A stretch of DNA of 64,000 nucleotides from an uncultured Chloroflexia bacterium (GTDB lineage Bacteria > Chloroflexota > Dehalococcoidia > UBA2247 > RBG-13-53-26). Positions 29,635 to 44,798 of the stretch are shown one piece after another (positions within the stretch are counted from its first letter, which is position 1; each line of letters starts with the position of its first letter). The notes below the pieces were generated by a model. The model made no database searches. It was not told where the DNA came from and was given only the letters and a program-made list of their open reading frames with translations. The translations under genes were made by a program, and so were the position numbers. The stretch covers positions 39,988-103,987 of the forward strand of contig CAVRFM010000015.1 in the NCBI GenBank assembly GCA_963720375.1, read 5' to 3'.

Positions 29635-29654
29635 TCCCCAGATCCCGCACAACA

Positions 29655-30476: not shown

Positions 30477-30627
30477 GCCAGCCAATAATGAGAGAATCGA
30501 AACAGGTTACAGATCGCCTGACACCTGTAATGGAGCCTGGAAAGAAGCAGCACTATTGTGCACAATGTGCCGTTTGTGTGCATATCATGTGCAAGAGTGT
30601 AGAGCACTCGGGGCCAACCGGTAGAAA

Positions 30628-31314
30628 ATGACAACTAAGCCAGCATACATCCATAGAATGTTTTCAGCCATAGCCGACAGGTATGACCTTCTTAATACCT
30701 TGCTCAGTTTTAACAGGGATAAATACTGGCGCAGATTTACTGTGTCCAGCCTCGGGTTAAAAGGAGATGAGGTTATCCTGGATGTAGCCACTGGAACAGG
30801 AAAGCTGGCCCAGGAACTGGTCAAAGGGGTCGGAGCAAAAGGCAGAGTTGTCGGGATCGATTTCTGTAAAAGGATGCTTTATATAGCCAAAAACAAGAGC
30901 CCAAACACAGAGCTTGCACTTGCAACCTCAGAGAGCCTGCCCTTCCCAGACAACACTTTTGATTGCGCCACCATCGCCTTTGCCCTTCGAAACGTCCCTG
31001 ATGTCGAAAAGACACTGCGGGAAACAACCAGAGTAGTTAAGAGGGGGGGGAAGGTAATCTGCCTCGAGTTTTCCCGGCCTCGGCATCGGCTCTTCCGGAA
31101 GGTCCATCAGCTTTATCTCTTCCGCATCCTGCCACTCATTGGCTGGGCCCTATCCAGAGACAGGGAGGCTTATATCTATCTTCCTCGTTCCATTGCGGAG
31201 TTCTACGAGCCAAGCGAATTAAAGCAAATCATGGAGCATACTGGCTTAAAGGACACCCACTTCCATCCTCTAACCTGGGGTATTGTTACCATACACGCTG
31301 GAATAAAAAGCTAG
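30628..31314 (+). CDS. ubiE: Demethylmenaquinone / ubiquinone-menaquinone C-methyltransferase
   Basis: RMFSAIADRYDLLNTLLSF start and a LDVATGTG SAM-binding motif. Confidence 0.88.
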   Translation: MTTKPAYIHRMFSAIADRYDLLNTLLSFNRDKYWRRFTVSSLGLKGDEVILDVATGTGKLAQELVKGVGAKGRVVGIDFCKRMLYIAKNKSPNTELALATSESLPFPDNTFDCATIAFALRNVPDVEKTLRETTRVVKRGGKVICLEFSRPRHRLFRKVHQLYLFRILPLIGWALSRDREAYIYLPRSIAEFYEPSELKQIMEHTGLKDTHFHPLTWGIVTIHAGIKS

Positions 31315-31510
31315 CCAACCACTGCCACCCTGTTCTGAAGTCCGCGCTTTTGGCATGACCGGCTTAAGTTGCCCCAATGACTCTAAGACATCCCCCACTA
31401 AAGATCCGGCCCTTCTGAGAACTCCCCCAAAAAACACTGCGCCAGCACCCCGAATTCTCAACTCAGGAACGGAGTGCTGGCGAAAAAACAATATCCAACC
31501 AGACCGGGGG

Positions 31511-32068
31511 TTACTTTGATTTTGCTGCAACTGTGGCAGCGCCGGCCTTACTCTGGCCTGTGTGATAGCCTTTTAACACACTCTTCCAATGGGCTATCAA
31601 CTCAGGTTGCCACTCAATCGTAGGTGGAACAGGCCTTGCTTCAGTTCCAAGCTCCCGCAACGAAAGATCACGCAAACCCTTCAGATACTTGTCAAATTGC
31701 TTGATCTCTTTGTCGGAGAAGCGGGCCACCAGGATATCACGGGCATAGCCCAATATGACTGGCAGTGCTCGGTCAAGAAGTTCTTTCCCTTTGGGCTGTA
31801 TCTGTATCTTTACCACCCTCTGATCCTTCTTGCTCCTGACCTTTCTAACATAGCCAGCCCTCTGCATGCGAGACAGCAGCGCAGAGACACTATGTTTCTC
31901 CCGGAACACATAAGAAGATATCTCACCGGGGCTAAGAGGGACTTTGCTCATGCTCAAGATGAGCAGAACATCCGTTTGGGCAAGTGTAGTTTGCCGCTTG
32001 CCAAGCTCGATTTCCATAGCCCTCATCGCAGCTTCAGCGGCCTGGCGCAACCGAACCCAGGTAGTCAT
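31511..32068 (-). CDS. MarR-family winged-helix transcriptional regulator with a C-terminal extension
   Basis: LTLAQTDVLLILS...LSPGEISSYVFREKHSVSALLSRMQRAGYV wHTH. Confidence 0.7.
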   Translation of the reverse strand: MTTWVRLRQAAEAAMRAMEIELGKRQTTLAQTDVLLILSMSKVPLSPGEISSYVFREKHSVSALLSRMQRAGYVRKVRSKKDQRVVKIQIQPKGKELLDRALPVILGYARDILVARFSDKEIKQFDKYLKGLRDLSLRELGTEARPVPPTIEWQPELIAHWKSVLKGYHTGQSKAGAATVAAKSK

Positions 32069-32285
32069 ATACGGATCACCAGTTTCCCAATTGTGCACCT
32101 TCTCCTCCTTATTAGCAGTTCTCCCTGCTGCTCAGCCTGCCCGAATCTATGTCCGGTCAGCCCTCCCTTTTACCGCAGGATTTTATGAAATTGTAACATC
32201 CCATAGGAACTATGTCAAATGGCTACAGACCTTATAGAGAAATCAGGATCACGGCAAGAATGAAGCCTGAATCCGCAACCGCCCC

Positions 32286-33665
32286 TCACCCCACCGGTTT
32301 CTCATACTTCCAAATAGTTCCTTGAGGCGTGTCCTCGAGAACTATCCCCAGATCCTTCAAGCACGAGCGGACTCTGTCAGCCATCCGCCACTGCTTCTCG
32401 TTCCTCAGTTCAGCCCGAATCGAAATCAGCAAGTCAATGAAGGGCTCGGCAGCCAACTTCATTGACTTCTCTTGAAAGGTAAACCCCAGAACGCTTCCCA
32501 GTTCAATCAGATTCTCTCGAGCCTGTCGCACATCAGCACCTTGACTTATACCCCGGTTAATCTCCCTGGCCAGGTCGAATAGGACCGCCACGGCCTGAGC
32601 TGTATTGAAGTCAGCATCCATAGCGTCGATGAACCTCTGCCGAAACAATTCGGTGTCAATTGCTCCTGTCAATCCCTTCTCCTCACACTGACCATTATCA
32701 AGGGCTGATTGACGCAGTCTTTCCACACCCTTTTCCGCAGCCGCCAGGTTCTCCTCGCTGAAGCTGATCGGGCTACGATAGTGGGAGCTCAGGATGAAGA
32801 ACCGTATCGCATCAGGAGTAAAGCGTTCCAAGACCTCCTTGATGGTAACAAGAATCCCCAGGGACTTGCTCATCTTTTCTCCACCCAGTTGCACGAAACC
32901 ATTATGCATCCAGTACTTGACGAAGGGGGTGACCCCGGTAAAGCTTTCCGATTGGGCTATCTCATTCTCATGATGCGGAAAGATCAGGTCCTGTCCTCCG
33001 CCATGTATGTCTAAGGTCTCACCCAGGTGTCTCAGGGACATGGCGCTGCATTCAATGTGCCAGCCAGGTCTCCCCTTGCCCCAAGGGCTTTCCCACCACG
33101 GCTCACCGGGCTTCGCCGCCTTCCACAAGGCAAAATCCAGAGGATGTTCCTTGCCAACTCCTACTTCTACACGCGCTCCCGCTTGCAGAGCTTCAAGGCC
33201 CTGGTGGCTGAGCTTTCCATAATCCGGAGCACTGCTCACTCTGAAGTAGACATCGCCACCTGCCTGGTAGGCATGCCCCCTGTCAACCAAGCCCTGAACT
33301 ACTTCAATAATTTTGGGTATCTCTTCAGTAGCTCTAGGATACACGTGAGCCCTCTTAATATTCAGCTTATCCATATCAACAAAGTATTGGGAAATAAACT
33401 TTTCAGCTAGCTCGGCAGGAGAAGTGCCCGATTTGTGCGCTCGATCGATAATCTTGTCGTCAATATCGGTAAAGTTTTGCACATGCTTCACCTTGTATCC
33501 CTTAAACTCCAGGTAGCGTCGCACCACGTCGAAGATTACATAGCTCATAGCATGGCCAAGATGGCACTCAGCGTAAGGAGTAACCCCACAGACATACATC
33601 CTCACCACCTCACCCTGAGGCACGAACTCTTCTTCCCGTCCCGAAAGAGTGTTATATATCTTCAC
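32286..33665 (-). CDS. cysS: Cysteine--tRNA ligase
   Basis: HLGHA and KMSKS class-I motifs. 459 aa. Confidence 0.93.
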   Translation of the reverse strand: MKIYNTLSGREEEFVPQGEVVRMYVCGVTPYAECHLGHAMSYVIFDVVRRYLEFKGYKVKHVQNFTDIDDKIIDRAHKSGTSPAELAEKFISQYFVDMDKLNIKRAHVYPRATEEIPKIIEVVQGLVDRGHAYQAGGDVYFRVSSAPDYGKLSHQGLEALQAGARVEVGVGKEHPLDFALWKAAKPGEPWWESPWGKGRPGWHIECSAMSLRHLGETLDIHGGGQDLIFPHHENEIAQSESFTGVTPFVKYWMHNGFVQLGGEKMSKSLGILVTIKEVLERFTPDAIRFFILSSHYRSPISFSEENLAAAEKGVERLRQSALDNGQCEEKGLTGAIDTELFRQRFIDAMDADFNTAQAVAVLFDLAREINRGISQGADVRQARENLIELGSVLGFTFQEKSMKLAAEPFIDLLISIRAELRNEKQWRMADRVRSCLKDLGIVLEDTPQGTIWKYEKPVG

Positions 33666-33723
33666 GATCGCTCCTTAACCTGGACTGTTTAATATCAATA
33701 GCCCGAATAGACTCTCAGTGTCC

Positions 33724-34215
33724 TCAGGTTTTGACCTCATGTGCGACCTTGTCCACCAAGGCCACAGCATACGCAGCTATCGCCTTCTCTTCCCCCAAAA
33801 AGCCGAGCCCTTTAGAAGTGGTGCTTTTTACCCCAACCTGCTCTATGCTGATACCCAGGGTCTGACCGATCAATTTCCGCATCTGGGGGACAAAGGGGGA
33901 CAGGTGAGGCTTTTCCGCCACTATGGTAGCGTCAACATTACACACCTGCCATCCTTCCGTTTGGAGCAGCGTGGCTACCTGGCGAAGAAGAGTGATACTG
34001 TAGATGTCCTTATACCTCGGATCAGAGGAGGGAAAGTGAATCCCTATATCCCCTAAACCAGCTGCGCCTAACAGAGCATCGATGATGGCATGCACCAGAA
34101 CATCGGCGTCGCTATGGCCATCAAGCCCCTTGTCAAAGGGTATCTCTATACCCCCTAACAGAAGCCTTCTTCCCTGCACTAAAGGGTGAACATCATAGCC
34201 GATGCCAACCCTCAT
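33724..34215 (-). CDS. ispF: 2-C-methyl-D-erythritol 2,4-cyclodiphosphate synthase
   Basis: GIGYDVH...GHSDADV motifs. Confidence 0.93.
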   Translation of the reverse strand: MRVGIGYDVHPLVQGRRLLLGGIEIPFDKGLDGHSDADVLVHAIIDALLGAAGLGDIGIHFPSSDPRYKDIYSITLLRQVATLLQTEGWQVCNVDATIVAEKPHLSPFVPQMRKLIGQTLGISIEQVGVKSTTSKGLGFLGEEKAIAAYAVALVDKVAHEVKT

Positions 34216-34921
34216 GCCTCTTCCTCAAAATGATCTCTGCCAGGGCCAAGTCCTCCAGCGTGGTAATCTTAATATTATCATAGGAGCCCATGTAGACTCT
34301 GACCTTATACCCAAGTGCCTCCACCAGAGCGGCATCATCCGTCACTTCCCCTTTAGCCTGCCGATATGCCTCCGTTATTATATCAAAGCGAAACACCTGC
34401 GGGGTCTGTGCTACCCAGAGGTTTTCTCGCCGAGGGGTATTCCGGATTGTCCCCTCGGCTTCAACTATTTTTACGGTTTCCTTTACAGGTACCGCCGCAA
34501 TAGCCGCCCCGGTCTGACGGGCCTCCTCTAGCCCCTGCTCTATCAGATCAGGAGTGATGCAAGGACGCGCCCCATCATGAATCACCACCCAGTGGCAACC
34601 TCCCAGCCCTTTCAGCCCCTCGGCTACCGAATCCTGGCGCCGTTCTCCACCGGCGCATACCTGCGCCACCTTCTGAAACCTTCCTTCCTTTACCACCTCC
34701 CGCCCTCGCTCCAAGCTCACTTCATTCAGCACGATCACCACCTGATCCACTGCACCACATTTCTCAAACACTTCAAGCACATGAGCCAGGACCGATTTGC
34801 CAGCGATGTCAGCAAAAATCTTGTCCACCCCACCCATCCGCCGGCTACTGCCAGCGGCAGCAACAACAGCCCCCACCTTCTCCCGAGATAGCTTCCTCAC
34901 CTTGATAACCGCCTCCTGCAA
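34193..34921 (-). CDS. ispD: 2-C-methyl-D-erythritol 4-phosphate cytidylyltransferase
   Basis: VVAAAGSSRRMG motif. Overlaps ispF in the usual ispDF arrangement. Confidence 0.9.
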   Translation of the reverse strand: MQEAVIKVRKLSREKVGAVVAAAGSSRRMGGVDKIFADIAGKSVLAHVLEVFEKCGAVDQVVIVLNEVSLERGREVVKEGRFQKVAQVCAGGERRQDSVAEGLKGLGGCHWVVIHDGARPCITPDLIEQGLEEARQTGAAIAAVPVKETVKIVEAEGTIRNTPRRENLWVAQTPQVFRFDIITEAYRQAKGEVTDDAALVEALGYKVRVYMGSYDNIKITTLEDLALAEIILRKRHEGWHRL

Positions 34922-34939
34922 ATGCTAGAATGGCCTCGT

Positions 34940-35017
34940 GGTGGGCGTAGCCCAGCGGTTTAAGGCGCCAGGTTGTGGCCCTGGAGATCGAGGGTTCGAA
35001 TCCCTCCGTCCACCCCA
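34940..35017 (+). tRNA. tRNA-His (anticodon GTG) with genome-encoded G-1 and CCA
   Basis: Acceptor stem G-1/GTGGGCG pairs with CGTCCAC-C. Anticodon stem CCAGG/CCTGG with loop TTGTGGC. T-arm GAGGG-TTCGAAT-CCCTC. 3' CCA. Confidence 0.85.
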
Positions 35018-35094
35018 GCGCCTATAGCTCAGCGGATCAGAGCATCGGTCTTCGGAACCGAGGGTCGAGGGTTCGAATCCCTCTAGGCGCGCCA
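35018..35094 (+). tRNA. tRNA-Arg (anticodon TCG), starts at the base after the CCA of tRNA-His
   Basis: Acceptor GCGCCTA/TAGGCGC. D-stem GCTC/GAGC. Anticodon stem TCGGT/ACCGA with loop CTTCGGA. T-arm GAGGG-TTCGAAT-CCCTC. 3' GCCA. Confidence 0.85.
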
Positions 35095-35684
35095 TCTCTA
35101 CGAGCCAAGTTATGCCCATATTCGTGTCCATATTCCCTCACAAAATGCCCCTGATCAATGTCGCCGTCAGCATATTCTGACACTTTTGCTAACAATTTGC
35201 TAACCACCATACACACGGCCGATTCCATGCAGATCTTTTGCACACCCCCCGCAGCTTTGGGCTACCTCTATTATCCTCGCTGTTGCACACAATAGCATCT
35301 GCTTACTATCACTACTAAATAGGCCTGCTATCCATCCACAGAACGAAGAGAAATAGTGCAGTGATACTCATAATGCAGCTAATGTGCAGTGCTGCTGGCA
35401 CTGCCGAGATCATAGGAGTGAAAATGAGGACGTTCCTTAATTACTACTGATCTTTTGATCTTTGCCTGTTGCCTTCTCCAACTCTAGTAGGGTCTTTTAT
35501 CGACGGATTGCCCAAGGGTGTCAGCCCTATCTAGAGCGCTGATTTAGCCAAGGTAGCATTACATGAAGACTTACTGGGCTGTGCCCTGCAAATCAGACCA
35601 TCATTGAACCAACATGCGGCGGCTTGCCTGTGCTGGTGTCCTTTGTACGGAAGAAGAGGTGTGACTCCAAGGTCTAGAAACAAG

Positions 35685-36077
35685 CTATGCGTTTGCTGAG
35701 TGGGGCTTCTTTATTTTCATTACGCTGGCTCTAAAACGAAGATACTTCAAGTACTCTGTCAGTTCCTCAATTTCGTTAGGCGTGGCGGTTGAGAGAATAT
35801 CTGGTTGTGATTGGGGAGGCGTGTGGAAGGATATAATCCAGTCGAACTCGGGTGTGTAGCCAGCTTTCTTCTGCAAAACTTGCACTGGCACGCCGAGTAT
35901 GATTGCGAGTTGAAGTAACTCAGGTTGCCTCGGGCGCCTGTCACCTTTCTCCCATCGGCAGACGGTGCTGAGAGATCTGTGCACCTTCTCACCCAAGTCA
36001 TCCTGTGACATTGGGACTGGCTGTCCAAGCCTAGTCTCACGGAGAAGATCTCCGAATTCTTTCCAGCGGTTAGGCAT
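35685..36077 (-). CDS. HTH_XRE-family transcriptional regulator with a C-terminal extension, divergent from the HD-protein operon
   Basis: MSQDDLGEKVHRSLSTVCRWEKGDRRP...LLQLAIILGVPVQVL helix-turn-helix. Confidence 0.75.
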   Translation of the reverse strand: MPNRWKEFGDLLRETRLGQPVPMSQDDLGEKVHRSLSTVCRWEKGDRRPRQPELLQLAIILGVPVQVLQKKAGYTPEFDWIISFHTPPQSQPDILSTATPNEIEELTEYLKYLRFRASVMKIKKPHSANA

Positions 36078-36132
36078 GATGGTGAGACTCCTTGTTGATA
36101 CTGCGTTGCGATTTTATGTTCTTTTTTACTCT

Positions 36133-36173
36133 TTGTCAATACTTACGGCAACAATATTGACAAAATGTATAAT
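36133..36173 (+). promoter_or_regulatory. Perfect 9-bp inverted repeat TTGTCAATA-N13-TATTGACAA (candidate operator) abutting a TG-TATAAT extended -10 element for the downstream 146-aa / HD operon
   Basis: Inverted-repeat arms at 36133-36141 and 36155-36163. TG at 36166-36167 and TATAAT at 36168-36173. Lies in the divergent intergenic region between the XRE regulator and the operon. Confidence 0.5.
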
Positions 36174-36264
36174 AGTGGTAATCTGTTTGTTGTAAGGGCG
36201 TGGTTCCCCTATAATTGGAGCCCCACCGTCAGTCCGGTGGTCTCAGGAAGAAGGAGGTGGGATC

Positions 36265-36705
36265 TTGCCTAGGACAGTTAGTGCGGATTCCCAAACTGGG
36301 CACCTCACGCTCTATGATAGTGTTGTAGCAGCGATAGGGGGGATCCACGAGGATCAAGCTAGCATGCAAGATCAGAGGATCCCCGTGGAGGATTGCTACC
36401 GTGCCTTCAGCCTTCTTGCATCCGAGTTTCCAGAGAGCTTTCCGGGTGTCTATTTTTCCCGGCGGAGCGGAGTCCCATATTCCAGAGATATCGAGGACGT
36501 GTTGTTCCAGGCAGGGGCATGGAGGCTCATCGAAGATAATAACCCTGACTACCGATATTTCACAGTACCCGCGGCGACCAGAAGACTGATCAAGGAACAG
36601 CTGAGCAAGATTCACAGTGGCAAGACGGGGGATCTTGAGCAAGTCTCCCTACGATTCAAATCTGTGCTAGAGGAACTGAAGCGGGTTGAGTCCCACAGCC
36701 TGTGA
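36265..36705 (+). CDS. Hypothetical protein (146 aa) whose 3' end overlaps the start of the HD-domain gene
   Basis: ORF follows the extended -10 promoter. Overlaps the next ORF by 20 nt in a different frame, suggesting co-transcription. No recognisable motif. Confidence 0.55.
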   Translation: MPRTVSADSQTGHLTLYDSVVAAIGGIHEDQASMQDQRIPVEDCYRAFSLLASEFPESFPGVYFSRRSGVPYSRDIEDVLFQAGAWRLIEDNNPDYRYFTVPAATRRLIKEQLSKIHSGKTGDLEQVSLRFKSVLEELKRVESHSL

Positions 36706-38215
36706 CGCCCTAGCAGAAGAAGTGAACTCCGCGGTTACGGAGATCCTCGGTGACTATAAGCCAAGAAAGATCAGGGACCCCAAGGTCATCCGAGACACCG
36801 CATTTGGCTTTAACCTGTTCCACAAGCATGAGATCAACTTGCTCGATTCGCCGCTTATGCAGCGGTTGCGGCAAGTACGTCAGACGGCTCTAGCCTTCTA
36901 CACCTATCCCTCATCAGTGCATACGCGCTTCGAACATTCCCTTGGTGTCACTGTACTCGCGCAACGCATGCTAGATGCCCTTCGGCAGCGTAAACCCTCC
37001 ACCGCTAGTGATGTCGCCTGCATGGAGGTTCGCCTAGCTGCATTATTGCACGATGTCGGTCATGGTCCATTCTCCCACGCATCTGAAAAGGTCTACAGTT
37101 CCCTCGACCAAATTAAGCGGGCAAAGGAAGAGAACCCCCTGCTAAAAGACAATGAGGCGCACGAAATCCTTTCCTACTTTGTGATCAAGTCATCCAAGTT
37201 CAACGAACTGTGGAGCACCATTCTTGCGAAGTATCAATTGGGTGATAACCCCATCAACCTTGGCGAGATACGCCTTGATCATGTTGCCGAGATGATTCTT
37301 GGTCATCATCCAACGCCCCAACTTAAGTACTTAGCCCAGATTGTGAACGGTCCTCATGATGCGGACAAGCTTGATTACATTACGCGCGATGGTTATTTCA
37401 CTGGTTTACGAACGGCGATCGATCTAGATAGGCTCTTCCTATGTCTGGGGGTCTACGAAAGCGACTCCGGCGAATGCCAATTGTGTGTAGATTTGAGTGG
37501 TGTGACGGCACTTGAGCAGATGCTATTCAACAAGATGCAACTCTATACATCAGTCTATCATCACCATAAGGTTCGCGCGGCTTTCCGTTCGTGTGTTGCC
37601 ATCATTGATGCATGCCGTAACAAGAAGCTGAAGGCGATCGGAGGATCGGAACTCGGTAGTCCGGTTGATTTCATGAGGATCGACGACGGCGCTATTTTGA
37701 GCGCCCGATCGACAGGGGATGCTGACCTCGACAAATGTCTTGCCAATTTGCGAAATCGCATTCTTCCGATGCGTGCTCTGGTACTGTGCTCAGACTCAGT
37801 GGATGATAACGCCTCTCGTTTTCTTCTGGCACGTATGCGGCGGGATACCTCCACAGCCAACGCTCTGCGCGAAGAAATCGCAACCAGAGCTAAAGTCGAC
37901 AACTCGCACATTCTAGTTGATTTTCCGGAAGAGCCACGTTTCATGAGCACAGCGCTCGGCAGTCTTGTTAGGGTCAGTCCTCAAGATGTAGTCCGCCTCA
38001 ACTCGATATTTCCAGTAGGGGGATGGGTGAGAGGTCATGCTGAACACAGATACAGAGTGTATGTATTCAGTCCCTATGAGTCGGAAGAGGCAGTGGCGAA
38101 AGCAGCATACGCCATACTGAGAGAAAAGTACGGGATCAAACCAAACAAAATGGCCTTCTTCCTTGCCAACCATACGCCGACATTCGTGGCATCGCTCCAA
38201 CTGGGGAATTCGTGA
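36686..38215 (+). CDS. HD-domain dNTP triphosphohydrolase-like protein (dGTPase / SAMHD1-type HD phosphohydrolase), 509 aa
   Basis: HTRFEHSLGV...LLHDVGHGPFSH and GPHDADKLDYITRD motifs of the dGTPase-like HD family. N-terminal IRDTAFGF...QRLRQVRQ segment as in this family. Lower-GC context. Confidence 0.8.
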   Translation: MSPTACDALAEEVNSAVTEILGDYKPRKIRDPKVIRDTAFGFNLFHKHEINLLDSPLMQRLRQVRQTALAFYTYPSSVHTRFEHSLGVTVLAQRMLDALRQRKPSTASDVACMEVRLAALLHDVGHGPFSHASEKVYSSLDQIKRAKEENPLLKDNEAHEILSYFVIKSSKFNELWSTILAKYQLGDNPINLGEIRLDHVAEMILGHHPTPQLKYLAQIVNGPHDADKLDYITRDGYFTGLRTAIDLDRLFLCLGVYESDSGECQLCVDLSGVTALEQMLFNKMQLYTSVYHHHKVRAAFRSCVAIIDACRNKKLKAIGGSELGSPVDFMRIDDGAILSARSTGDADLDKCLANLRNRILPMRALVLCSDSVDDNASRFLLARMRRDTSTANALREEIATRAKVDNSHILVDFPEEPRFMSTALGSLVRVSPQDVVRLNSIFPVGGWVRGHAEHRYRVYVFSPYESEEAVAKAAYAILREKYGIKPNKMAFFLANHTPTFVASLQLGNS

Positions 38216-38285
38216 GATCGCAAGCGGTGCCAGTGCGATGGTACTACATTCGCCGCCTAAGTCCGTCAGCTTGCCCGCTATCCCT

Positions 38286-39200
38286 CTAGAGATCAACCTG
38301 GACGGAATTGTTGGTGCCGGCGCGTACCGCCATCATTTGTGAAGCATAACTCTCTGGCACTCGCATTTGATGGCCGAGTGCCGTCTTCTCATCAAAGCGA
38401 TGCACGGCGGCTTGCTGTAAACCCGGTGCAATATGGCTGTACGTGTCGAGCAAAAGTGATGGATATACTGGAATGCCACAGCTTGCCTTAAACGACTTTT
38501 GGGGTGTATTCCCTATTTGCCATATGGATGTAGACATAATCTCCAGGACTTGACGTCCTCTGCTAGCCGTCTGATATCATCCGAGGTGACTTCCAGTTAC
38601 ACGCATCCCGATAGTGCTTTTACACAACAAGTGCCCAATTGGGGCAAGGGCAAGACTACTCATCAAAGGGGGAGGTAGCAAATGGCGAGACAGTGTAAAA
38701 CAGTAGAGATAGTGTACAACGCAAGAGGTCGAGATGTCTTGACATGGTGTATAAAGACAGCTTTTCTCTCCTTGATAACACTGGGGTTCTACTTGCCTGT
38801 TGCCGCAAATAAGCTTGTGAGATATCTGTGCGAGCACACAAAGATACGCATAGACGAGTCAGAGGTCTCAGGAACGTAGTTCGCAGCCTTGGCTGCTAGC
38901 AACCTGCTGAACATGAAATGGCATTGGTTGGTATTTTACAGATCGAGTGTGTCACTACAGAGAGAATCTCATATCAGTCAACAAGACATAAAGTAAACCC
39001 CTTGACCTGGGAAACAGGGACGGTTGTAAACTCATGAAAGGCTTTTCGGGGGCAACCCTTCTAAATATAAATGGAACCAATCCTCAAGAGCAACGCAACA
39101 TAAAGATAAGCCCTTGACCAGCCCAAGGAGGGCAGTTCTATACTTATCAAGCCGCATCCTCGGAGAGAAGGCTTTATTCGGTAATTTCTCGCTTCTTAAC
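38286..39200 (-). pseudogene. Decayed tyrosine recombinase (phage-type integrase) gene remnant
   Basis: Minus-strand frames give ...PKVV*GKLWHSSISIT (LGHSSI box with an in-frame TAA), then a shifted frame gives LLDTYSHIAPGLQQAAVHRFDE (catalytic-Tyr box). Upstream frames are broken. No intact ORF over 90 aa. Confidence 0.5.
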
Positions 39201-39253
39201 TAATTCCGAATCCTCACGTCGCAGAGCAAGACTTTTTAGCTCTAAAGGGGGGT

Positions 39254-40570
39254 ATGAAAACAGCTAAAGAGACTTGGGAGACTGCCAAAGGGGCCCTTCA
39301 GGTTCAGGTTAGCAAAGCCAACTTCGACACTTGGCTAAAGGACACTGTAGGGATCAGTCACCAAGGAAATCAATTTGTAATCGGAACTCCCAGCGCTTTC
39401 GCCAAGGAATGGCTGGAAAAGCGTCTTCATTCTTTGGTAACGAAGGTGCTCATCAGCATTGTAGGGCATGAGATTGAGGTTCAGTTCCAGGTCTGCCCGG
39501 ACCAGGACTCTGTCTGGCAGGGCCAGGACCACTCACAATCGAAGCTGCCATTGCCAGTGGGCAACCCGAGGTATACTTTCGAAAACTTCGTTGTCGGGGG
39601 TTCAAACCGTCTTGCCTACGCTGCTGCATTGGGGATATCTGAGGAGCCAGGGCGGCAGTACAATCCGCTTTTCATCCACGGTGGATCCGGCCTGGGAAAG
39701 ACCCATCTTTCCCACGCGATAGGGAATGAAGCTTCCGAAAACGGATTCAAGGTCGTTTATACTGGCAGCGAGCAATTCACCAATGAGTTCATAAGTTCAA
39801 TCAGGGAGAGAAGGACAGAGGAGTTTCGCAGCAAATTCAGGAACGCTGACATTCTCGTCATAGAGGACATCCAGTTCCTGGTTGGCAAACCCTCGACACA
39901 GGAAACACTGTTTCACACCTTCAATGAACTGCATGACACCAATCGCCAGTTGGTTATCACCAGCGATCGCCCTCCAAAGGCGATGACTACCCTGGAGAGC
40001 AGCTTATGTTCCCGCCTCGAAAGCGGGCTTATTGCCCAAGTTGAAGCACCTGACCTGGAAACACGTTTGGCCATCCTTCACGCAAGGGCCGAGGAACAGC
40101 AGGTTGTCATCGACGAAGCCGTATTCGATTTCATCGCCCAGCGTTGCCAGCGAAATGTCAGGGAACTAGAGGGAGCCCTGACTGCGCTTATCGCCGATGC
40201 AAAGATGTCACAGCAGCGTCCTACACTGGAGCTGGCGCAGGAGGCTCTGCGCGATATGCCTTCGGATAATTTAGGCTCATATGCTACTACCCCGGCATCG
40301 ATATTGAAGGCAGTGGCCGACCACTTCCAGGTGAGTTTAGAATCCCTGAAAGGCCGTAAGAGAGACAATCGATTAGCCATGGCGCGACACATCGCCATCT
40401 ACCTTGTACGAGAGAAGACAAATTGCCCCCTGCAGGATATCGGCAAATTGCTTGGCGGCAGAGACCACTCCACTATTCTCAGGGGCTATCATAGAATCGC
40501 CGGCACAGTTTCTACTGATCCCGCAGTGCAGAGAAACATCCATCAGATTGTGGCTAATCTTCCCACTTAG
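39254..40570 (+). CDS. dnaA: Chromosomal replication initiator protein DnaA
   Basis: Walker A GGSGLGKTHL, AAA+ sensor motifs and the C-terminal DNA-binding HTH (ARHIAIYLVREKT...LGGRDHSTIL). Confidence 0.95.
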   Translation: MKTAKETWETAKGALQVQVSKANFDTWLKDTVGISHQGNQFVIGTPSAFAKEWLEKRLHSLVTKVLISIVGHEIEVQFQVCPDQDSVWQGQDHSQSKLPLPVGNPRYTFENFVVGGSNRLAYAAALGISEEPGRQYNPLFIHGGSGLGKTHLSHAIGNEASENGFKVVYTGSEQFTNEFISSIRERRTEEFRSKFRNADILVIEDIQFLVGKPSTQETLFHTFNELHDTNRQLVITSDRPPKAMTTLESSLCSRLESGLIAQVEAPDLETRLAILHARAEEQQVVIDEAVFDFIAQRCQRNVRELEGALTALIADAKMSQQRPTLELAQEALRDMPSDNLGSYATTPASILKAVADHFQVSLESLKGRKRDNRLAMARHIAIYLVREKTNCPLQDIGKLLGGRDHSTILRGYHRIAGTVSTDPAVQRNIHQIVANLPT

Positions 40571-40767
40571 GTATATTACTATTATTATCTACTATCCAAA
40601 CATCACCCATTCTACTAGACTACTAATACACAATAAGATCCTGTGCATTCAATAAGTGCAGTCAGGCACAGTTGGGCATGTGCTACTAGCCATAACTTTG
40701 AGAGTGGGTGGGAGGGTAGGTATTATGTGCAAATCGTGCAGATGGTCTGTAAAGCAGTAAGACTGGC

Positions 40768-41373
40768 ATGAATATAGGGGTGTTTGGAGGCACCTTTGAT
40801 CCAGTCCACCGTGGACATATTGCTGCGGCCCAAAAGGTGAAAAGTGTTCTTGGCCTGGAGACGATTTTCTTTGTCCCGGCAGGGCAGCCTTGGCTCAAAG
40901 CAGATATTCCTGTTTCCCCGGCGAGGCACCGGGTAGAGATGGTACGTCTTGCCATTGCTGGTAAGAGATACTTCCAGATATCTACTACTGAGGTCGACAG
41001 GCCTGGCCCCTCCTTTACTGTTGACACCATTGATGTGCTGCAAAGGCAGCTGGGCGCCGCAGCAAACCTGTGGTTCATTTTGGGGAGTGACACGCTTTCA
41101 GACCTGCCGCGATGGAAGGAGCCGACCCGCCTCATACAGATTTGCCATCTGGTAGCATTCACCAGACCGGGTTTTGTCCCTCCTCCGCTGGAGTGGCTCG
41201 AATCATCTATCCCGGGTATTTCCAATCATGTTACTTTCGTAGAGGTACCGCAAATAAATGTCAGTGCCTCTGATATTCGACGCCGGGTAGCACAGGGTGC
41301 TTCCATTCGCCGGATGGTACCTGGAGCTGTGGAAAAGTATATCCTGGAACACGGATTGTATGTGTCCCCCTAG
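40768..41373 (+). CDS. nadD: Nicotinate-nucleotide adenylyltransferase
   Basis: GVFGGTFDPVHRGHI nucleotidyltransferase motif. Confidence 0.9.
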   Translation: MNIGVFGGTFDPVHRGHIAAAQKVKSVLGLETIFFVPAGQPWLKADIPVSPARHRVEMVRLAIAGKRYFQISTTEVDRPGPSFTVDTIDVLQRQLGAAANLWFILGSDTLSDLPRWKEPTRLIQICHLVAFTRPGFVPPPLEWLESSIPGISNHVTFVEVPQINVSASDIRRRVAQGASIRRMVPGAVEKYILEHGLYVSP

Positions 41374-41647
41374 GTTGTGTGGGCTGATCAAGTTGAGCGT
41401 TATTCATATACGGATACCCAAGAAACGTTGGTATAGTCCAAGAAGGTGGTGCTAAATGAGATGCCCCAAATGCGGTTATTGCAGCTTTGATGAGGGATGT
41501 AACCATGCCTCTAGCTGATAGAGACTACATGAGAAAAGAACATCCTCCTGCTTGCACCTGCGTTGAGTGCGAAAGGCGAAGGGCAAACAAGGGCAGACGG
41601 CGCACGGGGGAATCTCTCTGGAGTAGAACAATTGGGAGGCTGTTCTC

Positions 41648-42193
41648 TTGGATGCGCTGATGGATGGAGACGTATCAATGTCGCAGGAACGTGATAACGC
41701 TCTCACTAAGGTAGAACTGGCTCGCTACTTCCTCGAACTCATGAAACGTATTGAGAACAGCAGGGCACCTTTGCTACAGGGGAGCACTGCTCTGAGTGTC
41801 CTACAAGAGTACACTTCCTACTTGGATGGATTCTGGGCTGAGTGCTACAGTGCCACACGCTATTTCGATGATGTCAATCCTAAGTGTGCAAAGGCACTTA
41901 AAGACTTTCGAGAAAAAACGCAGGGAGATTTCTACGCATGGGGTACTGGTAAGCGTTCCATATCCGTTCACCACAAACCAGTTGAGCCAAAGAGGGAAGG
42001 CTATATGCCGCCACGAGGAGACAACATTGGTGGGCAACTCTTAGAATACGACCCCCCAAATTGGAACAAGATCAATTCCAAACTGAACGACTATTACTAC
42101 TTCACTGATGATCCTTCGGAGCAGCCGATAACTAGGCAGTGTGAGAGTCACTTAGCAGAACTAGAGAAGTTCATAAAGCAGAATTGTCCATGA
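41648..42193 (+). CDS. Hypothetical protein (181 aa; the start may be the Met at 41678)
   Basis: ORF with no recognisable motif. Lies upstream of, and co-oriented with, the protease gene. Confidence 0.5.
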   Translation: MDALMDGDVSMSQERDNALTKVELARYFLELMKRIENSRAPLLQGSTALSVLQEYTSYLDGFWAECYSATRYFDDVNPKCAKALKDFREKTQGDFYAWGTGKRSISVHHKPVEPKREGYMPPRGDNIGGQLLEYDPPNWNKINSKLNDYYYFTDDPSEQPITRQCESHLAELEKFIKQNCP

Positions 42194-42227
42194 CTGGCAC
42201 CTATGAGGCAAGATAAAATGAATATCA

Positions 42228-43088
42228 TTGATCGGGGATATCAATATGCGCGTACCTGACGAGGTTCGCCAATGCGTCGTGTTTGTGGGGCTTGGAGACG
42301 GCAAGGGAGGAGTGTCATTCAAAGGGACAGCTTTCTTCGTTAGTGTACCTTCCAAGAGCAAACCTGAAGTTAGTTACCTATACTTGGTAACAGCCAAACA
42401 TGTGGCAGCCTTACTGCAAGACAAACCATTCTTAATCCGAGCCAACACGAATGATGGGAAGTCATGCGTAATTGGAGGCGCAAGAGTACATTGGTGGTAT
42501 CATCCCACCGATCCTTTCGTAGATGTAGCCATCATCTCTTGGGTACACCCCGAAAACATGCCCCTTGACTATCTTGAATACAAACACATTCCAACTACAA
42601 TGTTTTTGTCCGATGAAGCTATATATAGTCGTGCTATCGGCACAGGGGATGAGGTATTCATCACTGGGCTTTTTGCACATCTGACAGGCTCATCAAGAAA
42701 CCTGCCAATAGTCCGCATTGGCAACATAGCCATGTTCCCTACAGAGCCAGTACCGACACGTATCGGCAACATCGAAGCTTATTTGATCGAAGCTAGATCA
42801 ATTGGAGGTTTAAGTGGTTCTCCTGCCTTTGTCATCCAAACAGCTCCACCTGAAGTTGGCAAGCTTTACCTTTTGGGATTGATGCATGGTCACTGGGATA
42901 TCCCCCCAGAGGCAAAGAACGACCAACTGGTAATGGACAATGATCACTATAAGCAGGTGAATATGGGCATAGCGATTGTAATTCCAGCTAAGAAGATATT
43001 GGAGGTTATGAACCAAGAAATACTAGACACATGGAGAAGACTAGAGGATCAGAAGATGCAGAAAGAACAAGTACCACCGCCAATGTGA
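42228..43088 (+). CDS. Trypsin-like (chymotrypsin-fold, S1-type) serine protease
   Basis: Catalytic-triad context VTAKHV (His), DVAII (Asp) and GGLSGSP (Ser). Confidence 0.65.
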   Translation: MIGDINMRVPDEVRQCVVFVGLGDGKGGVSFKGTAFFVSVPSKSKPEVSYLYLVTAKHVAALLQDKPFLIRANTNDGKSCVIGGARVHWWYHPTDPFVDVAIISWVHPENMPLDYLEYKHIPTTMFLSDEAIYSRAIGTGDEVFITGLFAHLTGSSRNLPIVRIGNIAMFPTEPVPTRIGNIEAYLIEARSIGGLSGSPAFVIQTAPPEVGKLYLLGLMHGHWDIPPEAKNDQLVMDNDHYKQVNMGIAIVIPAKKILEVMNQEILDTWRRLEDQKMQKEQVPPPM

Positions 43089-43223
43089 AGTATGAGGATT
43101 GAAATATGAATAACGCTGAAGTTGATGAAGCCTCGCTCTGAACACTATAATCTACTGGCTGGTCTAACCGAGAGTATTAGGGAATCGGACTCCATCTAAG
43201 TTAGACTACTCTAGTTAATCATT

Positions 43224-43679
43224 ATGCCTACTCTTGCAGTCAAGTTGGTCCATCCGGCCGCGAAGCCACCTGGGAAGATGACTCCAGGGAGTGCCGGCCT
43301 TGACCTTTACGCAGCGGAAAGTGTGGAGGTTCCGCCTACCCATTGCGAGCCCGATGGACGTGCTGAAGTCGGCAGAGCCCTTGTATCGACAGGAATTGTT
43401 ATAGAGTTGCCTCATGGAACGGTTGGCAGGATAGCATCCCGGTCCGGGCTGTCAGTTAGGGCAAATATAGAGGCGGGAGCCGGGTGGATTGACAGTGACT
43501 ACCGCGGAACGGTTATGGTGGAGTTGAAGAACTTCGGTTCGAATCCCTACCGCATCAACCAGGGAGACCGTATCGCTCAATTAATGGTACTACCGGTTGT
43601 GGACGTTGAAATAAGTGTTGTGACCGATATTAGAGAAACGGCACGAGGGTCATCAGGGTTTGGTTCGACTGGCCACTAG
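43224..43679 (+). CDS. dut: dUTP diphosphatase
   Basis: SAGLDL...RSGL...GWIDSDYRG...dUTPase motifs. Confidence 0.9.
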   Translation: MPTLAVKLVHPAAKPPGKMTPGSAGLDLYAAESVEVPPTHCEPDGRAEVGRALVSTGIVIELPHGTVGRIASRSGLSVRANIEAGAGWIDSDYRGTVMVELKNFGSNPYRINQGDRIAQLMVLPVVDVEISVVTDIRETARGSSGFGSTGH

Positions 43680-43778
43680 GTTTTAGGTATATCGTTCCAA
43701 GTTCTATTCTTGTTGGTGAAGACCGATTGCTGTCTCCCCTGTTTCTGACTGGCCGCTCTGGGTCGAAGCTACTGAAAA

Positions 43779-44483: not shown

Positions 44484-44522
44484 GAGTAGTCCGAACATCT
44501 CCAAATTGTAAACCGACACGTA

Positions 44523-44777: not shown

Positions 44778-44798
44778 ACTGTATTGATCGGTTAGAAT

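What the first reader, a model, noticed from the sequence alone, without database searches (positions are those of the whole stretch)
34940..39253. Lower-GC islet of about 4.1 kb wedged between a tandem tRNA-His / tRNA-Arg pair and dnaA, with mobile-element hallmarks
The content changes sharply after tRNA-Arg ends at 35094. There are 590 bp with no ORF of 60 aa or more. Then come a divergent XRE regulator, a two-gene operon (unknown 146-aa protein plus an HD-domain dNTPase-like protein), and about 1 kb of decayed tyrosine-integrase sequence ending about 30 bp before the dnaA start. At 39204-39223 there is TTCCGAATCCTCACGTCGCA, which partly resembles the 3' T-arm and acceptor segment of the adjacent tRNA-His (GGTTCGAATCCCTCCGTCCAC). 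This is a possible degenerate att repeat. Integration next to tRNA genes and right beside the origin-proximal dnaA gene is noteworthy, because the cargo looks like a defence module.
Basis: partly seen in the sequence, partly recalled or inferred. Interest (0 to 1): 0.8.

Follow-up and report, generated by a model that had tools for sequence, protein, structure and literature searches.

The report
Strain-variable dNTPase islet beside dnaA
A 3.4-kb stretch between a tRNA-Arg gene and dnaA is a real islet that two ~98%-identical relatives lack, and it carries a repressor, a small winged-helix protein and a SAMHD1-like dNTP-degrading enzyme that probably form an undescribed variant of nucleotide-depletion phage defence.

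Summary
The islet is real, but its limits and hallmarks differ from the finding. Two contigs about 98% identical in the flanks (L168, L169) go from tRNA-His/tRNA-Arg to the dnaA upstream region with 128 bp where the window has 3,393 bp (35129-38521). The variable segment holds an XRE repressor, a 146-aa protein, a 509-aa HD protein and a short relic of a tyrosine recombinase C-terminus. It does not hold 1 kb of integrase. Region 38522-39253, including the proposed att at 39204, is shared with the empty-site genomes and is not part of the islet. No boundary repeat exists. GC is only 3.5 points low, and the three genes have ordinary codon usage.

The cargo is a conserved gene pair with no family name that I could find. 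The small winged-helix protein sits directly upstream of a full-length SAMHD1-type dNTPase in at least 40 loci. The pair moves horizontally, lies next to integrases on a plasmid and on a contig from the IMG/VR viral collection, and has ThsB-type TIR fusions. In Dehalococcoidia it recurs in the dnaA-nadD-gyrB neighbourhood.

I read it as a repressor-controlled nucleotide-depletion defence cassette, a new variant of a known kind. A housekeeping role in the dNTP pool is the main rival.

The parts
34941..35017 (+). tRNA-His (GTG). Conserved flank, not part of the islet.
   Evidence: ARAGORN. Rfam tRNA 62.3 bits. Present in the islet-free L168.
35018..35094 (+). tRNA-Arg (TCG). This is the tRNA that borders the islet. 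The left breakpoint lies 34 bp past its 3' end.
   Evidence: ARAGORN. Rfam 71.8 bits. The 98% alignment with L168 runs to 35128.
35129..38521 (.). Strain-variable segment (the islet). It is 3,393 bp here and is replaced by 128 bp in L168 and L169. Weak similarity to the filler continues to about 35207, so the strictly unique part is about 35208-38521. The right edge is sharp at 38521|38522.
   Evidence: blastn of L168 and L169 against the window. Junction sequences and MAFFT alignments. The filled allele is also seen in L081 (99.7%, 35216-38641) and L170 (90%, 35135-38587).
35208..35684 (.). Non-coding leader of the islet (GC 0.46-0.49). No gene, RNA family or repeat was found. The cumulative GC-skew minimum falls here.
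   Evidence: ORF list. Rfam E-value scan found nothing. tblastx found nothing significant. Skew profile.
35685..36077 (-). XRE-family HTH regulator (130 aa), transcribed divergently from the operon. It is the predicted repressor of the cassette.
   Evidence: HTH_31 6.7e-8 and HTH_3 6.3e-7. Matches PHROG transcriptional repressors. Homologues sit in the same divergent position in L108 (46% identity) and L127.
36078..36264 (.). Divergent control region. It holds the inverted repeat TTTGTCAATA-N-TATTGACAAA (arms 36121-36141 and 36155-36175), a candidate XRE operator. It also holds a sigma-70-like promoter for the XRE gene (TTGACA-17-TAAAAT, 36139 to 36111, minus strand).
   Evidence: the repeat finder pair I1, 21-nt arms, 81% complementary. 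Promoter scan, 11 of 12 matches. Function is inferred.
36265..36705 (+). 146-aa partner protein (p146). It has a winged-helix core plus a long C-terminal helix and passes no Pfam family threshold. It is always encoded immediately upstream of the HD gene.
36686..38215 (+). 509-aa SAMHD1/EF1143-type HD-domain dNTP triphosphohydrolase homologue (HD509). It is the predicted effector.
   Evidence: Pfam HD + HD_assoc_2. PDB sequence hits: 2hek 1.3e-31, EF1143 (2o6i) 9e-26, SAMHD1 about 1e-23. AF2 pLDDT 90.8. Foldseek matches the SAMHD1 catalytic core over about 490-500 columns, TM 0.65-0.75. R81, H84, H122, D123, H126, H131, D227, K228, Y231 and D235 are invariant in 30 homologues.
38286..38526 (-). 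Relic of the C-terminus of a tyrosine recombinase (...HSSISIT / LLLDTYSHIAPGLQQAA...), with a frameshift and an in-frame stop. Similarity is supported for 38406-38526. The rest of the gene is missing and the relic stops at the islet's right boundary.
   Evidence: tblastn with the L105 integrase, E 1e-3 and 3e-3. The composite peptide hits annotated plasmid integrases at E about 1e-3. No Pfam Phage_integrase hit in any frame.
38522..39253 (.). dnaA upstream region, shared with the islet-free genomes and so not part of the islet.
   Evidence: 97.8% identical to L168 7757 onward. DUF898 28.1 bits and 23.6 bits. The fragment is called as a 65-aa gene in L168 and L169.
39254..40570 (+). dnaA (438 aa), followed by nadD at 40768-41373. 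This is the conserved core flank on the right.
   Evidence: Bac_DnaA 1.8e-63. The dnaA-nadD linkage is conserved in relatives.

Best explanation
Window 35129-38521 is a strain-variable genomic islet in a Dehalococcoidia chromosome. It sits 34 bp downstream of tRNA-Arg(TCG) and 0.7 kb upstream of dnaA, at the GC-skew switch.

It is the remnant of an integrase-bearing mobile element, or of a flexible islet exchanged between strains. It can no longer move on its own: only a truncated recombinase C-terminus is left and there are no att repeats.

Its cargo is a three-gene cassette:
- an XRE repressor, with a palindromic operator in the divergent promoter region;
- a translationally coupled operon of a 146-aa winged-helix protein (p146) and a 509-aa SAMHD1-type dNTP triphosphohydrolase (HD509).

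Proposed mechanism. HD509 hydrolyses dNTPs and so starves DNA replication of an invading phage, in the manner of SAMHD1, bacterial dGTPases and Clover CloA. p146 binds HD509 as its regulator, either as an antitoxin-like restraint that infection releases or as the sensor that switches it on. XRE keeps transcription low.

What is shown: the presence/absence polymorphism; the anatomy; the strict pairing of the two genes across many lineages; conservation of the catalytic residues and the fold; horizontal mobility of the pair.

What is inferred: dNTPase activity; the p146-HD509 interaction; XRE repression; the anti-phage role.
For: Islet:
- L168 and L169 are about 98% identical in the flanks and lack 35129-38521.
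- The filled allele recurs in two other samples.

Conserved pair:
- A p146 homologue lies immediately 5' of the HD gene in 34 metagenome loci, plus L005 and L171-L176. Starts and stops often overlap.

Effector:
- Sequence and fold match the SAMHD1 core, and the metal and catalytic residues are invariant.

Mobility and defence signals:
- L085 against L090: HD 80% and p146 homologue 70% identical, against gyrB 67%, hisS 63%, NadD 56% and DnaA 46%. The L090 module is 45.5% GC in a 56.1% GC locus.
- Homologues at 39% identity carry N-terminal TIR or SEFIR domains. In P0086 the TIR is ThsB-type, 2.8e-60.
- On the Desulfosarcina ovata plasmid the pair follows an integrase and sits near WYL, NTase-ThiF-MPN and PD-(D/E)XK genes.
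- On IMG/VR contig L176 the order is small protein, HD, tyrosine integrase, reverse transcriptase.
- There is a weak PADLOC dGTPase hit.
- A second strain-specific insert 1.6 kb past nadD matches the defence candidate PDC-S45.

p146:
- The fold's best match is a DarG chain of the M. tuberculosis DarTG complex. That chain (187 aa) may be the C-terminal domain that sequesters the DarT toxin (PMC7003065), but I did not check which part of DarG it is.

Precedent:
- dNTPase plus regulator systems exist (Clover, PMC12265719).
- TIR-dGTPase fusions have been described (PMC13519002).
Against: - No experiment supports any step of the mechanism.
- p146 and HD509 match no PADLOC system model at system level. 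The NCBIfam anti-phage dGTPase model scores 22.7 bits against a cut-off of 400.
- The commonest neighbours across 142 flanking proteins are housekeeping (gyrB, nadD, hisS, dnaA) and HTH regulators. No integrase, transposase or typical defence-gene family is in the 25-family list, which reached down to families with a single member.
- Codon usage of the three genes is host-like.
- Only one close full-length relative was found on viral contigs and one on plasmids.
- Insertion here cannot be told from deletion in the relatives, because there is no outgroup. The 128-bp filler has no clear origin.
Confidence: 0.6

Rival explanations
1. Housekeeping or replication-linked dNTP-pool regulator. The p146-HD509 pair is a chromosomal dNTP homeostasis module whose place next to dnaA, nadD and gyrB (with dut and a thymidylate-synthase-like gene nearby) reflects a role in matching dNTP supply to replication. 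Some strains have simply lost it.
For: - The pair lies in the dnaA-nadD-gyrB neighbourhood in the window and in L085, L090, L127 and L005. These carry HD subfamilies only 31-45% identical to one another.
- In L085 and L090 the 3' end of the HD gene overlaps the 3' end of gyrB by about 14-17 nt.
- Neighbours are mostly housekeeping.
- Codon usage is host-like.
- From general knowledge, SAMHD1-type bacterial dNTPases such as EF1143 have been studied as enzymes rather than as defence factors.
Against: - The pair is absent from genomes 98% identical in the flanks.
- It is absent from 79 of 80 DnaA loci of other Dehalococcoidia and relatives within +/-10 kb.
- The L090 copy was clearly acquired horizontally.
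- ThsB-TIR fusions and plasmid or integrase contexts exist.
- An integrase relic lies inside the islet.
Confidence: 0.2
2. Addiction (toxin-antitoxin) module with no defence role. HD509 is a growth-arresting toxin, p146 is its protein antitoxin and XRE is an autoregulator. The cassette persists as selfish cargo of decayed mobile elements.
For: - The architecture is a two-gene, overlapping operon with a small upstream partner.
- The p146 fold's best match is a DarG (antitoxin) chain of the DarTG complex.
- The distribution is sporadic and horizontal.
- The pair lies next to integrases.
Against: - Many toxin-antitoxin systems are themselves defence systems, so this overlaps the best explanation rather than excluding it.
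- The TIR fusions point to immune signalling.
- I ran no test of whether HD509 alone is toxic.
Confidence: 0.12
3. An intact-style tRNA-targeting integrative island spans 35095-39253, with about 1 kb of integrase next to dnaA and a degenerate att repeat of the tRNA 3' end at 39204-39223.
For: - The islet starts 34 bp after a tRNA gene, and a recombinase relic is present.
- tRNA genes bound plastic regions near the origin in Dehalococcoides (PMC2764846).
Against: - 38522-39253 is shared with the empty-site genomes.
- There is no Phage_integrase signal in that 1 kb.
- The 'att' matches tRNA-His at 12/20 and the bordering tRNA-Arg at 8/20 (hand count).
- No copy of the tRNA 3' end lies in or at the edge of the islet.
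- There is no significant boundary repeat.
- The integrase relic points out of the islet and is cut at the boundary.
Confidence: 0.05

Closest known systems
Clover anti-phage system (CloA dNTPase + CloB nucleotidyltransferase; Yamaguchi et al. 2025, PMC12265719)
   Same: Both are two-gene operons in which an HD-superfamily dNTP triphosphohydrolase effector is paired with a dedicated regulatory partner. The logic is the same: deplete nucleotides while holding toxicity in check.
   Different: CloB is a Pol-beta-type NTase with a [D/E]h[D/E] active site that makes the inhibitor p3diT. p146 is a 146-aa winged-helix protein with no conserved acidic motif; its invariant residues are S73 and N93. Any regulation here would act through protein-protein or nucleic-acid binding, not through a synthesised nucleotide signal.
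Single-gene anti-phage dGTPases (Tal et al. 2022; PADLOC dGTPase; NCBIfam NF041026; Vibrio Vdg octamers, PMC13519002)
   Same: The HD-domain dNTPase effector idea is the same. HD509 homologues carry TIR fusions like those reported for dGTPases (PMC13519002).
   Different: HD509 matches those models only across the HD motif (residues 55-136). It scores 22.7-31.5 bits against cut-offs of 152-400. By sequence and fold it belongs to the SAMHD1/EF1143 branch with HD_assoc_2. It also comes with an obligatory small partner.
SAMHD1 (human) and bacterial homologues EF1143 (2o6i) and Aquifex 2hek
   Same: HD509 resembles the catalytic core over its full length (TM 0.65-0.75). The RFEHSLG, LLHDxGHGPFSH and DxDKxDY motifs are conserved. 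The correspondence to SAMHD1 H167, H206, D207 and D311 comes from my own knowledge of SAMHD1.
   Different: There is no SAM domain. I did not examine conservation of the allosteric sites or the oligomeric state. SAMHD1 has no p146-like partner.
DarTG toxin-antitoxin system: DarG, whose C-terminal domain binds DarT (PDB 7yk3; PMC7003065)
tRNA-bounded genomic islands and high-plasticity regions near the origin in Dehalococcoides (McMurdie et al. 2009, PMC2764846)
   Same: Strain-specific DNA is concentrated near the origin, bordered by tRNA genes, and accompanied by truncated recombinase genes.
   Different: In D. mccartyi a ~130-kb syntenic 'Ori core' separates the plastic regions from the origin, and the islands show tRNA or ssrA direct repeats. 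Here the variable islets are small (0.9-3.4 kb), flank dnaA-nadD directly, and have no repeats.

Membership tests
tRNA-targeting integrative genomic island | Located at the 3' end of a tRNA gene | tested here: met
   The left breakpoint is 34 bp past tRNA-Arg. It lies downstream of the tRNA, not within it.
tRNA-targeting integrative genomic island | Present in some strains and absent in others, with conserved flanks | tested here: met
   L168 and L169 carry the empty site. The window, L081 and L170 carry the filled site.
tRNA-targeting integrative genomic island | Functional tyrosine or serine integrase gene inside the element | tested here: not met
   Only a C-terminal relic of about 40-50 codons remains, with a stop and a frameshift. 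No Phage_integrase hit in any frame.
tRNA-targeting integrative genomic island | Direct repeat of the tRNA 3' end (attL/attR) at the two boundaries | tested here: not met
The tRNA 3' 14-mer, with up to 3 mismatches, is absent from the islet and its edges. The best boundary repeat is 8 nt, reached by 41% of shuffles.
tRNA-targeting integrative genomic island | Atypical base composition or codon usage | tested here: inconclusive
   GC is 3.5 points low and the tetranucleotide z-score is +2.96. The three genes have ordinary codon usage (z -0.7 to -1.5), and the neighbouring core DNA is equally low in GC.
SAMHD1/EF1143-type dNTP triphosphohydrolase (HD superfamily) | H...HD...D metal-binding motif and catalytic His residues | tested here: met
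   H84, H122, D123, H126, H131, D227 and D230 are invariant in 30 homologues. The motifs align with 2hek and 2q14.
SAMHD1/EF1143-type dNTP triphosphohydrolase (HD superfamily) | Full-length catalytic-core fold | tested here: met
   AF2 pLDDT 90.8. Foldseek matches SAMHD1 chains at E about 1e-17, TM 0.65-0.75, about 490-500 columns.
SAMHD1/EF1143-type dNTP triphosphohydrolase (HD superfamily) | dNTP to deoxynucleoside + triphosphate activity; allosteric nucleotide activation and oligomerisation | not testable with these tools
   This needs enzyme assays. I did not analyse the allosteric residues.
Anti-phage dGTPase (NCBIfam NF041026 / PADLOC dGTPase) | Score above the family cut-off over the full model | tested here: not met
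   NF041026 scores 22.7 bits against a cut-off of 400. TIGR01353 scores 31.5 against 152. The PADLOC dGTPase match is 30.9 bits over residues 55-136 only.
Clover (CloA + CloB) | Partner gene is a Pol-beta-superfamily nucleotidyltransferase with a [D/E]h[D/E] motif | tested here: not met
   p146 is a winged-helix protein. Its invariant columns are S73 and N93, with F64 nearly invariant, and there is no conserved acidic motif. No NTase family hit.
Type II-like toxin-antitoxin pair | Small upstream gene, overlapping or coupled with the effector gene, strictly co-inherited | tested here: met
   20-nt overlap here. Adjacency holds in at least 40 loci.
Type II-like toxin-antitoxin pair | Effector is toxic alone and is neutralised by direct binding of the partner | not testable with these tools
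   Only a structural analogy to a DarG chain is available. No complex-prediction tool was on hand.
XRE-family transcriptional repressor | N-terminal HTH_3/HTH_31 domain above the Pfam threshold | tested here: met
   HTH_31 33.2 bits (cut-off 27) and HTH_3 29.8 bits (cut-off 23).
Bacterial oriC | Cluster of DnaA boxes with an AT-rich unwinding element at the GC-skew minimum | tested here: inconclusive
   The skew minimum is at about 35.2-35.7 kb. No TTATCCACA site with up to 1 mismatch lies between 33.4 and 40.5 kb. Five 2-mismatch sites in 35.1-35.5 kb are a weak enrichment. Relatives show no box cluster next to dnaA either.

The most novel reading that the evidence does not exclude
The winged-helix protein and SAMHD1-type dNTPase pair is an undescribed family of immune or replication-control modules, and Dehalococcoidia place it deliberately at the replication origin. 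Unrelated subfamilies of the pair have landed independently in the same dnaA-nadD-gyrB slot. Its position or gene dosage there may couple dNTP destruction to the state of replication initiation, for example by sensing runaway foreign DNA synthesis or stalled chromosomal replication. In that reading p146 is a new kind of sensor or brake for a dNTPase.
Probability: 0.15. Interest if true: 0.75.

Novelty: new variant of a known kind. Interest (0 to 1): 0.5.

Why it matters
An islet next to a tRNA gene is ordinary. Three things make this one worth a note.

1. It gives a clean natural presence/absence pair, at ~98% flank identity, for a conserved gene pair. That pair is widespread: 585 representative clusters for the small protein, and more than 4,000 HD relatives with E <= 1e-5 among the 8,000 candidates scored. 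It was absent from the defence catalogue I could query (PADLOC 2023) and from the literature I could search.

2. The pair adds a third way of regulating nucleotide-depletion immunity, a stand-alone winged-helix partner. The known ways are single-gene dGTPases and the Clover NTase-signal system.

3. In Dehalococcoidia the pair keeps turning up in the dnaA-nadD-gyrB neighbourhood, including one demonstrable horizontal arrival. A second defence-candidate insert flanks dnaA-nadD in this same window. Together these suggest an origin-adjacent hotspot for small immune cassettes in these streamlined genomes. That idea can be tested by a genome survey and by phage challenge in a surrogate host.

Tried and rejected
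- att repeat. I searched the tRNA 3' 14-mer with up to 3 mismatches. The only near-match (43536, 1 mismatch) lies inside the dUTPase gene, where it encodes FGSNPY, so it is chance. An ungapped repeat search across the true boundaries found nothing above shuffles. The repeat finder over 34900-39300 gave only short chance families.
- Integrase over 1 kb. A six-frame Pfam scan of 38216-39253 at E<=10 returned only DUF898. tblastx against all loci returned nothing.
- RNA genes. An Rfam E-value scan of 34-41 kb found only the two tRNAs.
- oriC. DnaA-box scans in the window and upstream or downstream of dnaA in 15 relatives showed no cluster. A repeated-9-mer search in the non-coding parts found nothing convincing.
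- Distant synteny. The 80 DnaA loci from GTDB genomes are only 38-52% identical and have a different upstream order (apgM-tRNA-Pro-mazG-fmt|dnaA). They cannot serve as an empty site. The exact-protein look-up of NadD supplied the informative relatives. Exact look-ups of DnaA, IspF and P0121 found nothing on record.
- Filler origin. The 128-bp filler in L168 has no significant match inside the islet beyond the left ~35 bp. So insertion against deletion stays unpolarised.
- Family assignment of p146. It has no significant Pfam hit; 28 of 50 members weakly touch DUF1803, best E 0.0016. The afdb50 fold library was not available.
- Literature. No paper in the library mentions HD_assoc_2 or PF19276. 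None that I found describes a dNTPase with a winged-helix partner.

Full report
**What is in the window**

ARAGORN and Rfam confirm tRNA-His (34941-35017) and tRNA-Arg (35018-35094) in tandem on the + strand. The features to their right are:
- about 0.5 kb without a credible ORF;
- an XRE-type HTH gene on the minus strand (35685-36077; HTH_31 and HTH_3 above threshold);
- a 146-aa ORF (p146, 36265-36705) that overlaps a 509-aa HD + HD_assoc_2 protein (HD509, 36686-38215) by 20 nt;
- about 1 kb without a long ORF;
- dnaA (39254-40570) and nadD (40768-41373).

The best DnaA relatives in the species-level genome collection are Dehalococcoidia at only about 51% identity, so the organism is a deep-branching member of that class. 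The cumulative GC skew reaches its minimum at about 35.2-35.7 kb, and gene orientation flips there, so the region lies at or next to the replication origin. I could not find a DnaA-box cluster, either here or next to dnaA in relatives.

**Composition**

The flanking core DNA at 29-33 kb and 39-45 kb is just as low. The tetranucleotide distance of 35-39 kb is the second highest in the window (z +2.96). The three genes, however, have GC3 and codon-usage scores within the normal spread (z -0.07 to -1.5). The deviation therefore probably comes largely from about 1.8 kb of non-coding DNA, which I did not test separately. Composition alone would not have justified calling this an islet.

**The decisive comparison**

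An exact-sequence look-up of NadD returned two contigs from other samples: L168 (872-kb ENA contig) and L169 (24-kb Logan contig). Both are about 98% identical to the window on both sides.
- L168 1-7628 aligns with window 27484-35128. This block carries marR, cysS, ispF, ispD, tRNA-His, tRNA-Arg and 34 further bp.
- L168 7757-11424 aligns with window 38522-42191.
- Between these blocks L168 and L169 have 128 bp where the window has 3,393 bp.

Weak similarity between the filler and the window continues to about 35207. The right junction is sharp at 38521|38522. The filled allele occurs in two further samples: L081 at 99.7% identity and L170 at about 90% in a gap-rich alignment (73 gap openings). 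Both are short contigs that break near the islet ends.

So the islet is real and polymorphic in nature. It spans 35129 (or about 35208) to 38521, not 35095 to 39253. Everything from 38522 to dnaA is common to both alleles.

**Mobile-element hallmarks**

No frame of 38216-39253 matches Pfam Phage_integrase, even at E<=10. What exists is a relic of the last ~40-50 codons of a tyrosine recombinase on the minus strand (38406-38526...HSSISIT / LLLDTYSHIAPGLQQAA...), broken by a stop and a frameshift. It aligns with the one integrase present among my loci at E 1e-3. A frame-corrected composite hits annotated plasmid integrases at E about 1e-3. I built that composite with the integrase alignment as a guide, so its E-value is somewhat flattering.

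The relic lies inside the variable segment, flush with its right edge. It points outward, so the body of the gene is gone and the boundary is a truncation point, not an att site. On the other strand, 38682-38879 is a C-terminal fragment of a DUF898 membrane protein. It is present in all strains.

The proposed att string at 39204-39223 matches tRNA-His at 12/20 and the bordering tRNA-Arg at 8/20, by my hand count. It lies in shared DNA. A 14-mer of the tRNA 3' end finds nothing at the islet, and the best repeat across the true boundaries (8 nt) is reached by 41% of shuffles.

The element is therefore a remnant that cannot move by itself. Without an outgroup I cannot say whether the window gained it or L168 and L169 lost it.

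**The cargo: the enzyme**

- By sequence, HD509 hits Aquifex 2hek (1.3e-31), Enterococcus EF1143 (9e-26) and SAMHD1 (about 1e-23).
- Its AlphaFold model (pLDDT 90.8) superposes on the SAMHD1 catalytic core over about 490-500 alignment columns (TM 0.65-0.75). The HD_assoc_2 region is therefore the C-terminal lobe of that core.
- The motifs TRFEHSLG, LLHDVGHGPFSH and DADKLDYITRD are invariant in 30 homologues. From my knowledge of SAMHD1 they correspond to R164/H167, H206/D207/H210/H215 and D311/K312/Y315/D319.
- HD509 touches the curated anti-phage dGTPase models only across the HD motif and scores far below their cut-offs.

**The cargo: the partner**

- p146 has no Pfam, NCBIfam, PADLOC or PHROG match.
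- A profile built from it finds a homologue directly upstream of the HD gene in 34 metagenome loci, and also in L005 and L171-L176. Starts and stops often overlap. L257 has a 144-aa ORF in the same position, which I did not test for homology.
- HD relatives below about 31% identity lack it.
- The family has 585 representative clusters in 1.84 billion proteins, and all listed members are small proteins with a single match.
[quoted passage not shown] I did not check which part of DarG the matched chain covers.

**The cargo: the regulator**

XRE homologues sit in the same divergent position in L108 and L127. HTH_3 is the commonest Pfam family among 142 neighbouring proteins. The divergent control region carries a 21-nt-arm inverted repeat (TTTGTCAATA...TATTGACAAA) and a strong sigma-70-like promoter for the XRE gene.

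**Is the pair mobile and immune-related?**

For:
- L085 and L090 share HD at 80% and the small protein at 70%. Their GyrB, HisS, NadD and DnaA are 67, 63, 56 and 46% identical. The L090 copy is 45.5% GC in a 56.1% GC locus, a clear horizontal arrival.
- Homologues at 39% identity carry N-terminal TIR or SEFIR domains. In P0086 the TIR is ThsB-type at 2.8e-60.
- On a mobilizable Desulfosarcina ovata plasmid the order is integrase, a remote p146 homologue, then an HD protein. WYL, NTase-ThiF-MPN and PD-(D/E)XK genes lie nearby.
- On IMG/VR contig L176 the pair is followed by a tyrosine integrase and a reverse transcriptase.

Against:
- Across the metagenome loci the neighbours are mostly housekeeping. 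No integrase or transposase family appears among the 25 families listed, a list that reached down to single-member families.
- Close full-length relatives are rare on viral contigs and plasmids.

**An unexpected regularity**

In Dehalococcoidia the conserved order is apgM-tRNA-Pro-mazG-fmt | dnaA-obg-nadD | gyrB. The pair sits between nadD and gyrB in L085, L090 and L127, and downstream of nadD in L005. L127 and L005 carry HD subfamilies only 31-42% identical to the L085/L090 type. In the window the pair sits just upstream of dnaA instead.

Three of the 33 loci retrieved through the HD protein, and so without regard to dnaA, show this linkage. As a rough estimate, random placement in a genome of about 2,000 genes would give about 0.07 such cases. 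This estimate is not corrected for phylogeny.

The same window has a second strain-specific insert 1.6 kb beyond nadD (42192-43099). It is one gene of 286 aa with GC3 z -3.0. It matches the PADLOC candidate PDC-S45 at 1.2e-14, and L168 and L169 lack it. L168 in turn has a 681-bp insert that the window lacks. All three indels in 24 kb of aligned sequence lie within about 5 kb of dnaA.

This recalls the tRNA-bounded high-plasticity regions near the origin in Dehalococcoides (PMC2764846). There, however, a syntenic Ori core separates those regions from the origin.

**Interpretation**

The best-supported reading is a decayed, strain-variable islet whose cargo is a repressor-controlled nucleotide-depletion cassette. 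HD509 degrades dNTPs, p146 is its protein regulator and XRE sets expression.

This works like the dGTPase and Clover systems (PMC12265719, PMC13519002), but it is not a member of either:
- the enzyme belongs to the SAMHD1/EF1143 branch;
- the partner is a winged-helix protein, not a nucleotidyltransferase.

The main rival is a housekeeping dNTP-pool role linked to replication. The origin-side location and the housekeeping neighbours favour it. The strain polymorphism, the horizontal transfer and the TIR fusions count against it.

I rate the islet call as near certain and the defence mechanism as moderately likely, with an overall confidence of 0.6. None of the biochemical steps has been tested.

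Noticed in passing
window 42192-43099 (gene 42228-43088, +): A second strain-specific insert lies 1.6 kb past nadD. It is a 286-aa gene that L168 and L169 lack. Its GC3 is the lowest in the window (z -3.0). It matches the PADLOC candidate defence protein PDC-S45 (1.2e-14, nearly full length) and phrog_7688. The upstream 181-aa gene (41648-42193) is present in all strains and has no family.
   Followed up: partly
L168 12830-13510: L168 and L169 carry a 681-bp insert (215-aa ORF, no Pfam hit) between the thymidylate-synthase-like gene and the comF-like gene. The window lacks it. All three indels in the 24 kb aligned between the strains lie within about 5 kb of dnaA.
   Followed up: partly
window 45503-46742: The serine hydroxymethyltransferase gene (glyA) is split into two ORFs in the window (240 aa + 169 aa). 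It is intact (410-412 aa) in L168 and L169. This is either a frameshift or stop error in the assembly, or a recent pseudogene.
   Followed up: no
window 38682-38879 (+): A 65-aa ORF is a C-terminal fragment of a DUF898 membrane protein (profile positions 263-312 of 336). It is kept in all strains just upstream of dnaA and is called as a gene in L168 and L169. This is a gene remnant in what should be the dnaA control or origin region.
   Followed up: partly
window 35200-35700 and 38880-39253: The cumulative GC skew turns at about 35.2-35.7 kb, but no TTATCCACA-type DnaA-box cluster exists anywhere between ispD and nadD, nor next to dnaA in 15 relatives. Where and what oriC is in this lineage remains open.
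   Followed up: partly
window 39002-39032 and 39114-39144: A duplicated motif, CCCTTGACC-19 nt-TAAACT and CCCTTGACC-19 nt-TATACT, lies upstream of dnaA. It looks like tandem promoters with an unusually long spacer, and the standard scan missed it.
   Followed up: no
window 27000-45000 compared with L033 and L006: The Dehalococcoidia order apgM-tRNA-Pro-mazG-fmt | dnaA-obg-nadD | gyrB is conserved in many relatives but broken here. A tblastn search of the 64-kb window found no fmt, mazG, apgM or gyrB. The only obg match was weak (29% identity at about 25.5-26.0 kb) and is not next to dnaA. cysS-ispF-ispD-tRNA-His-tRNA-Arg lies upstream of dnaA instead.
   Followed up: partly
L090 9459-11461; L085 5320-7292: The same small-protein + HD module (80% and 70% identical) occupies the nadD|gyrB gap in two genomes whose core proteins are only 46-67% identical. 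In L090 the module is 10.6 GC points below its surroundings. In both genomes the 3' end of the HD gene overlaps the 3' end of gyrB.
   Followed up: partly
L176 5594-10717 (IMG/VR contig); L256 5876-10379 (D. ovata plasmid NZ_AP021877): Outside Dehalococcoidia the pair lies next to tyrosine integrases. On L176 the order is small protein, HD, integrase, reverse transcriptase. On the plasmid the order is integrase, small protein, then a longer 806-aa HD protein, near WYL, NTase-ThiF-MPN and PD-(D/E)XK genes.
   Followed up: partly
L082 1918-2662: In the 57%-identical relative, the HD gene is followed by an MqsA/HTH_3-like 80-aa gene and a Macro-domain protein. This is of interest because a DarG chain, from a macrodomain antitoxin, is the closest structural neighbour of the small partner.
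   Followed up: no
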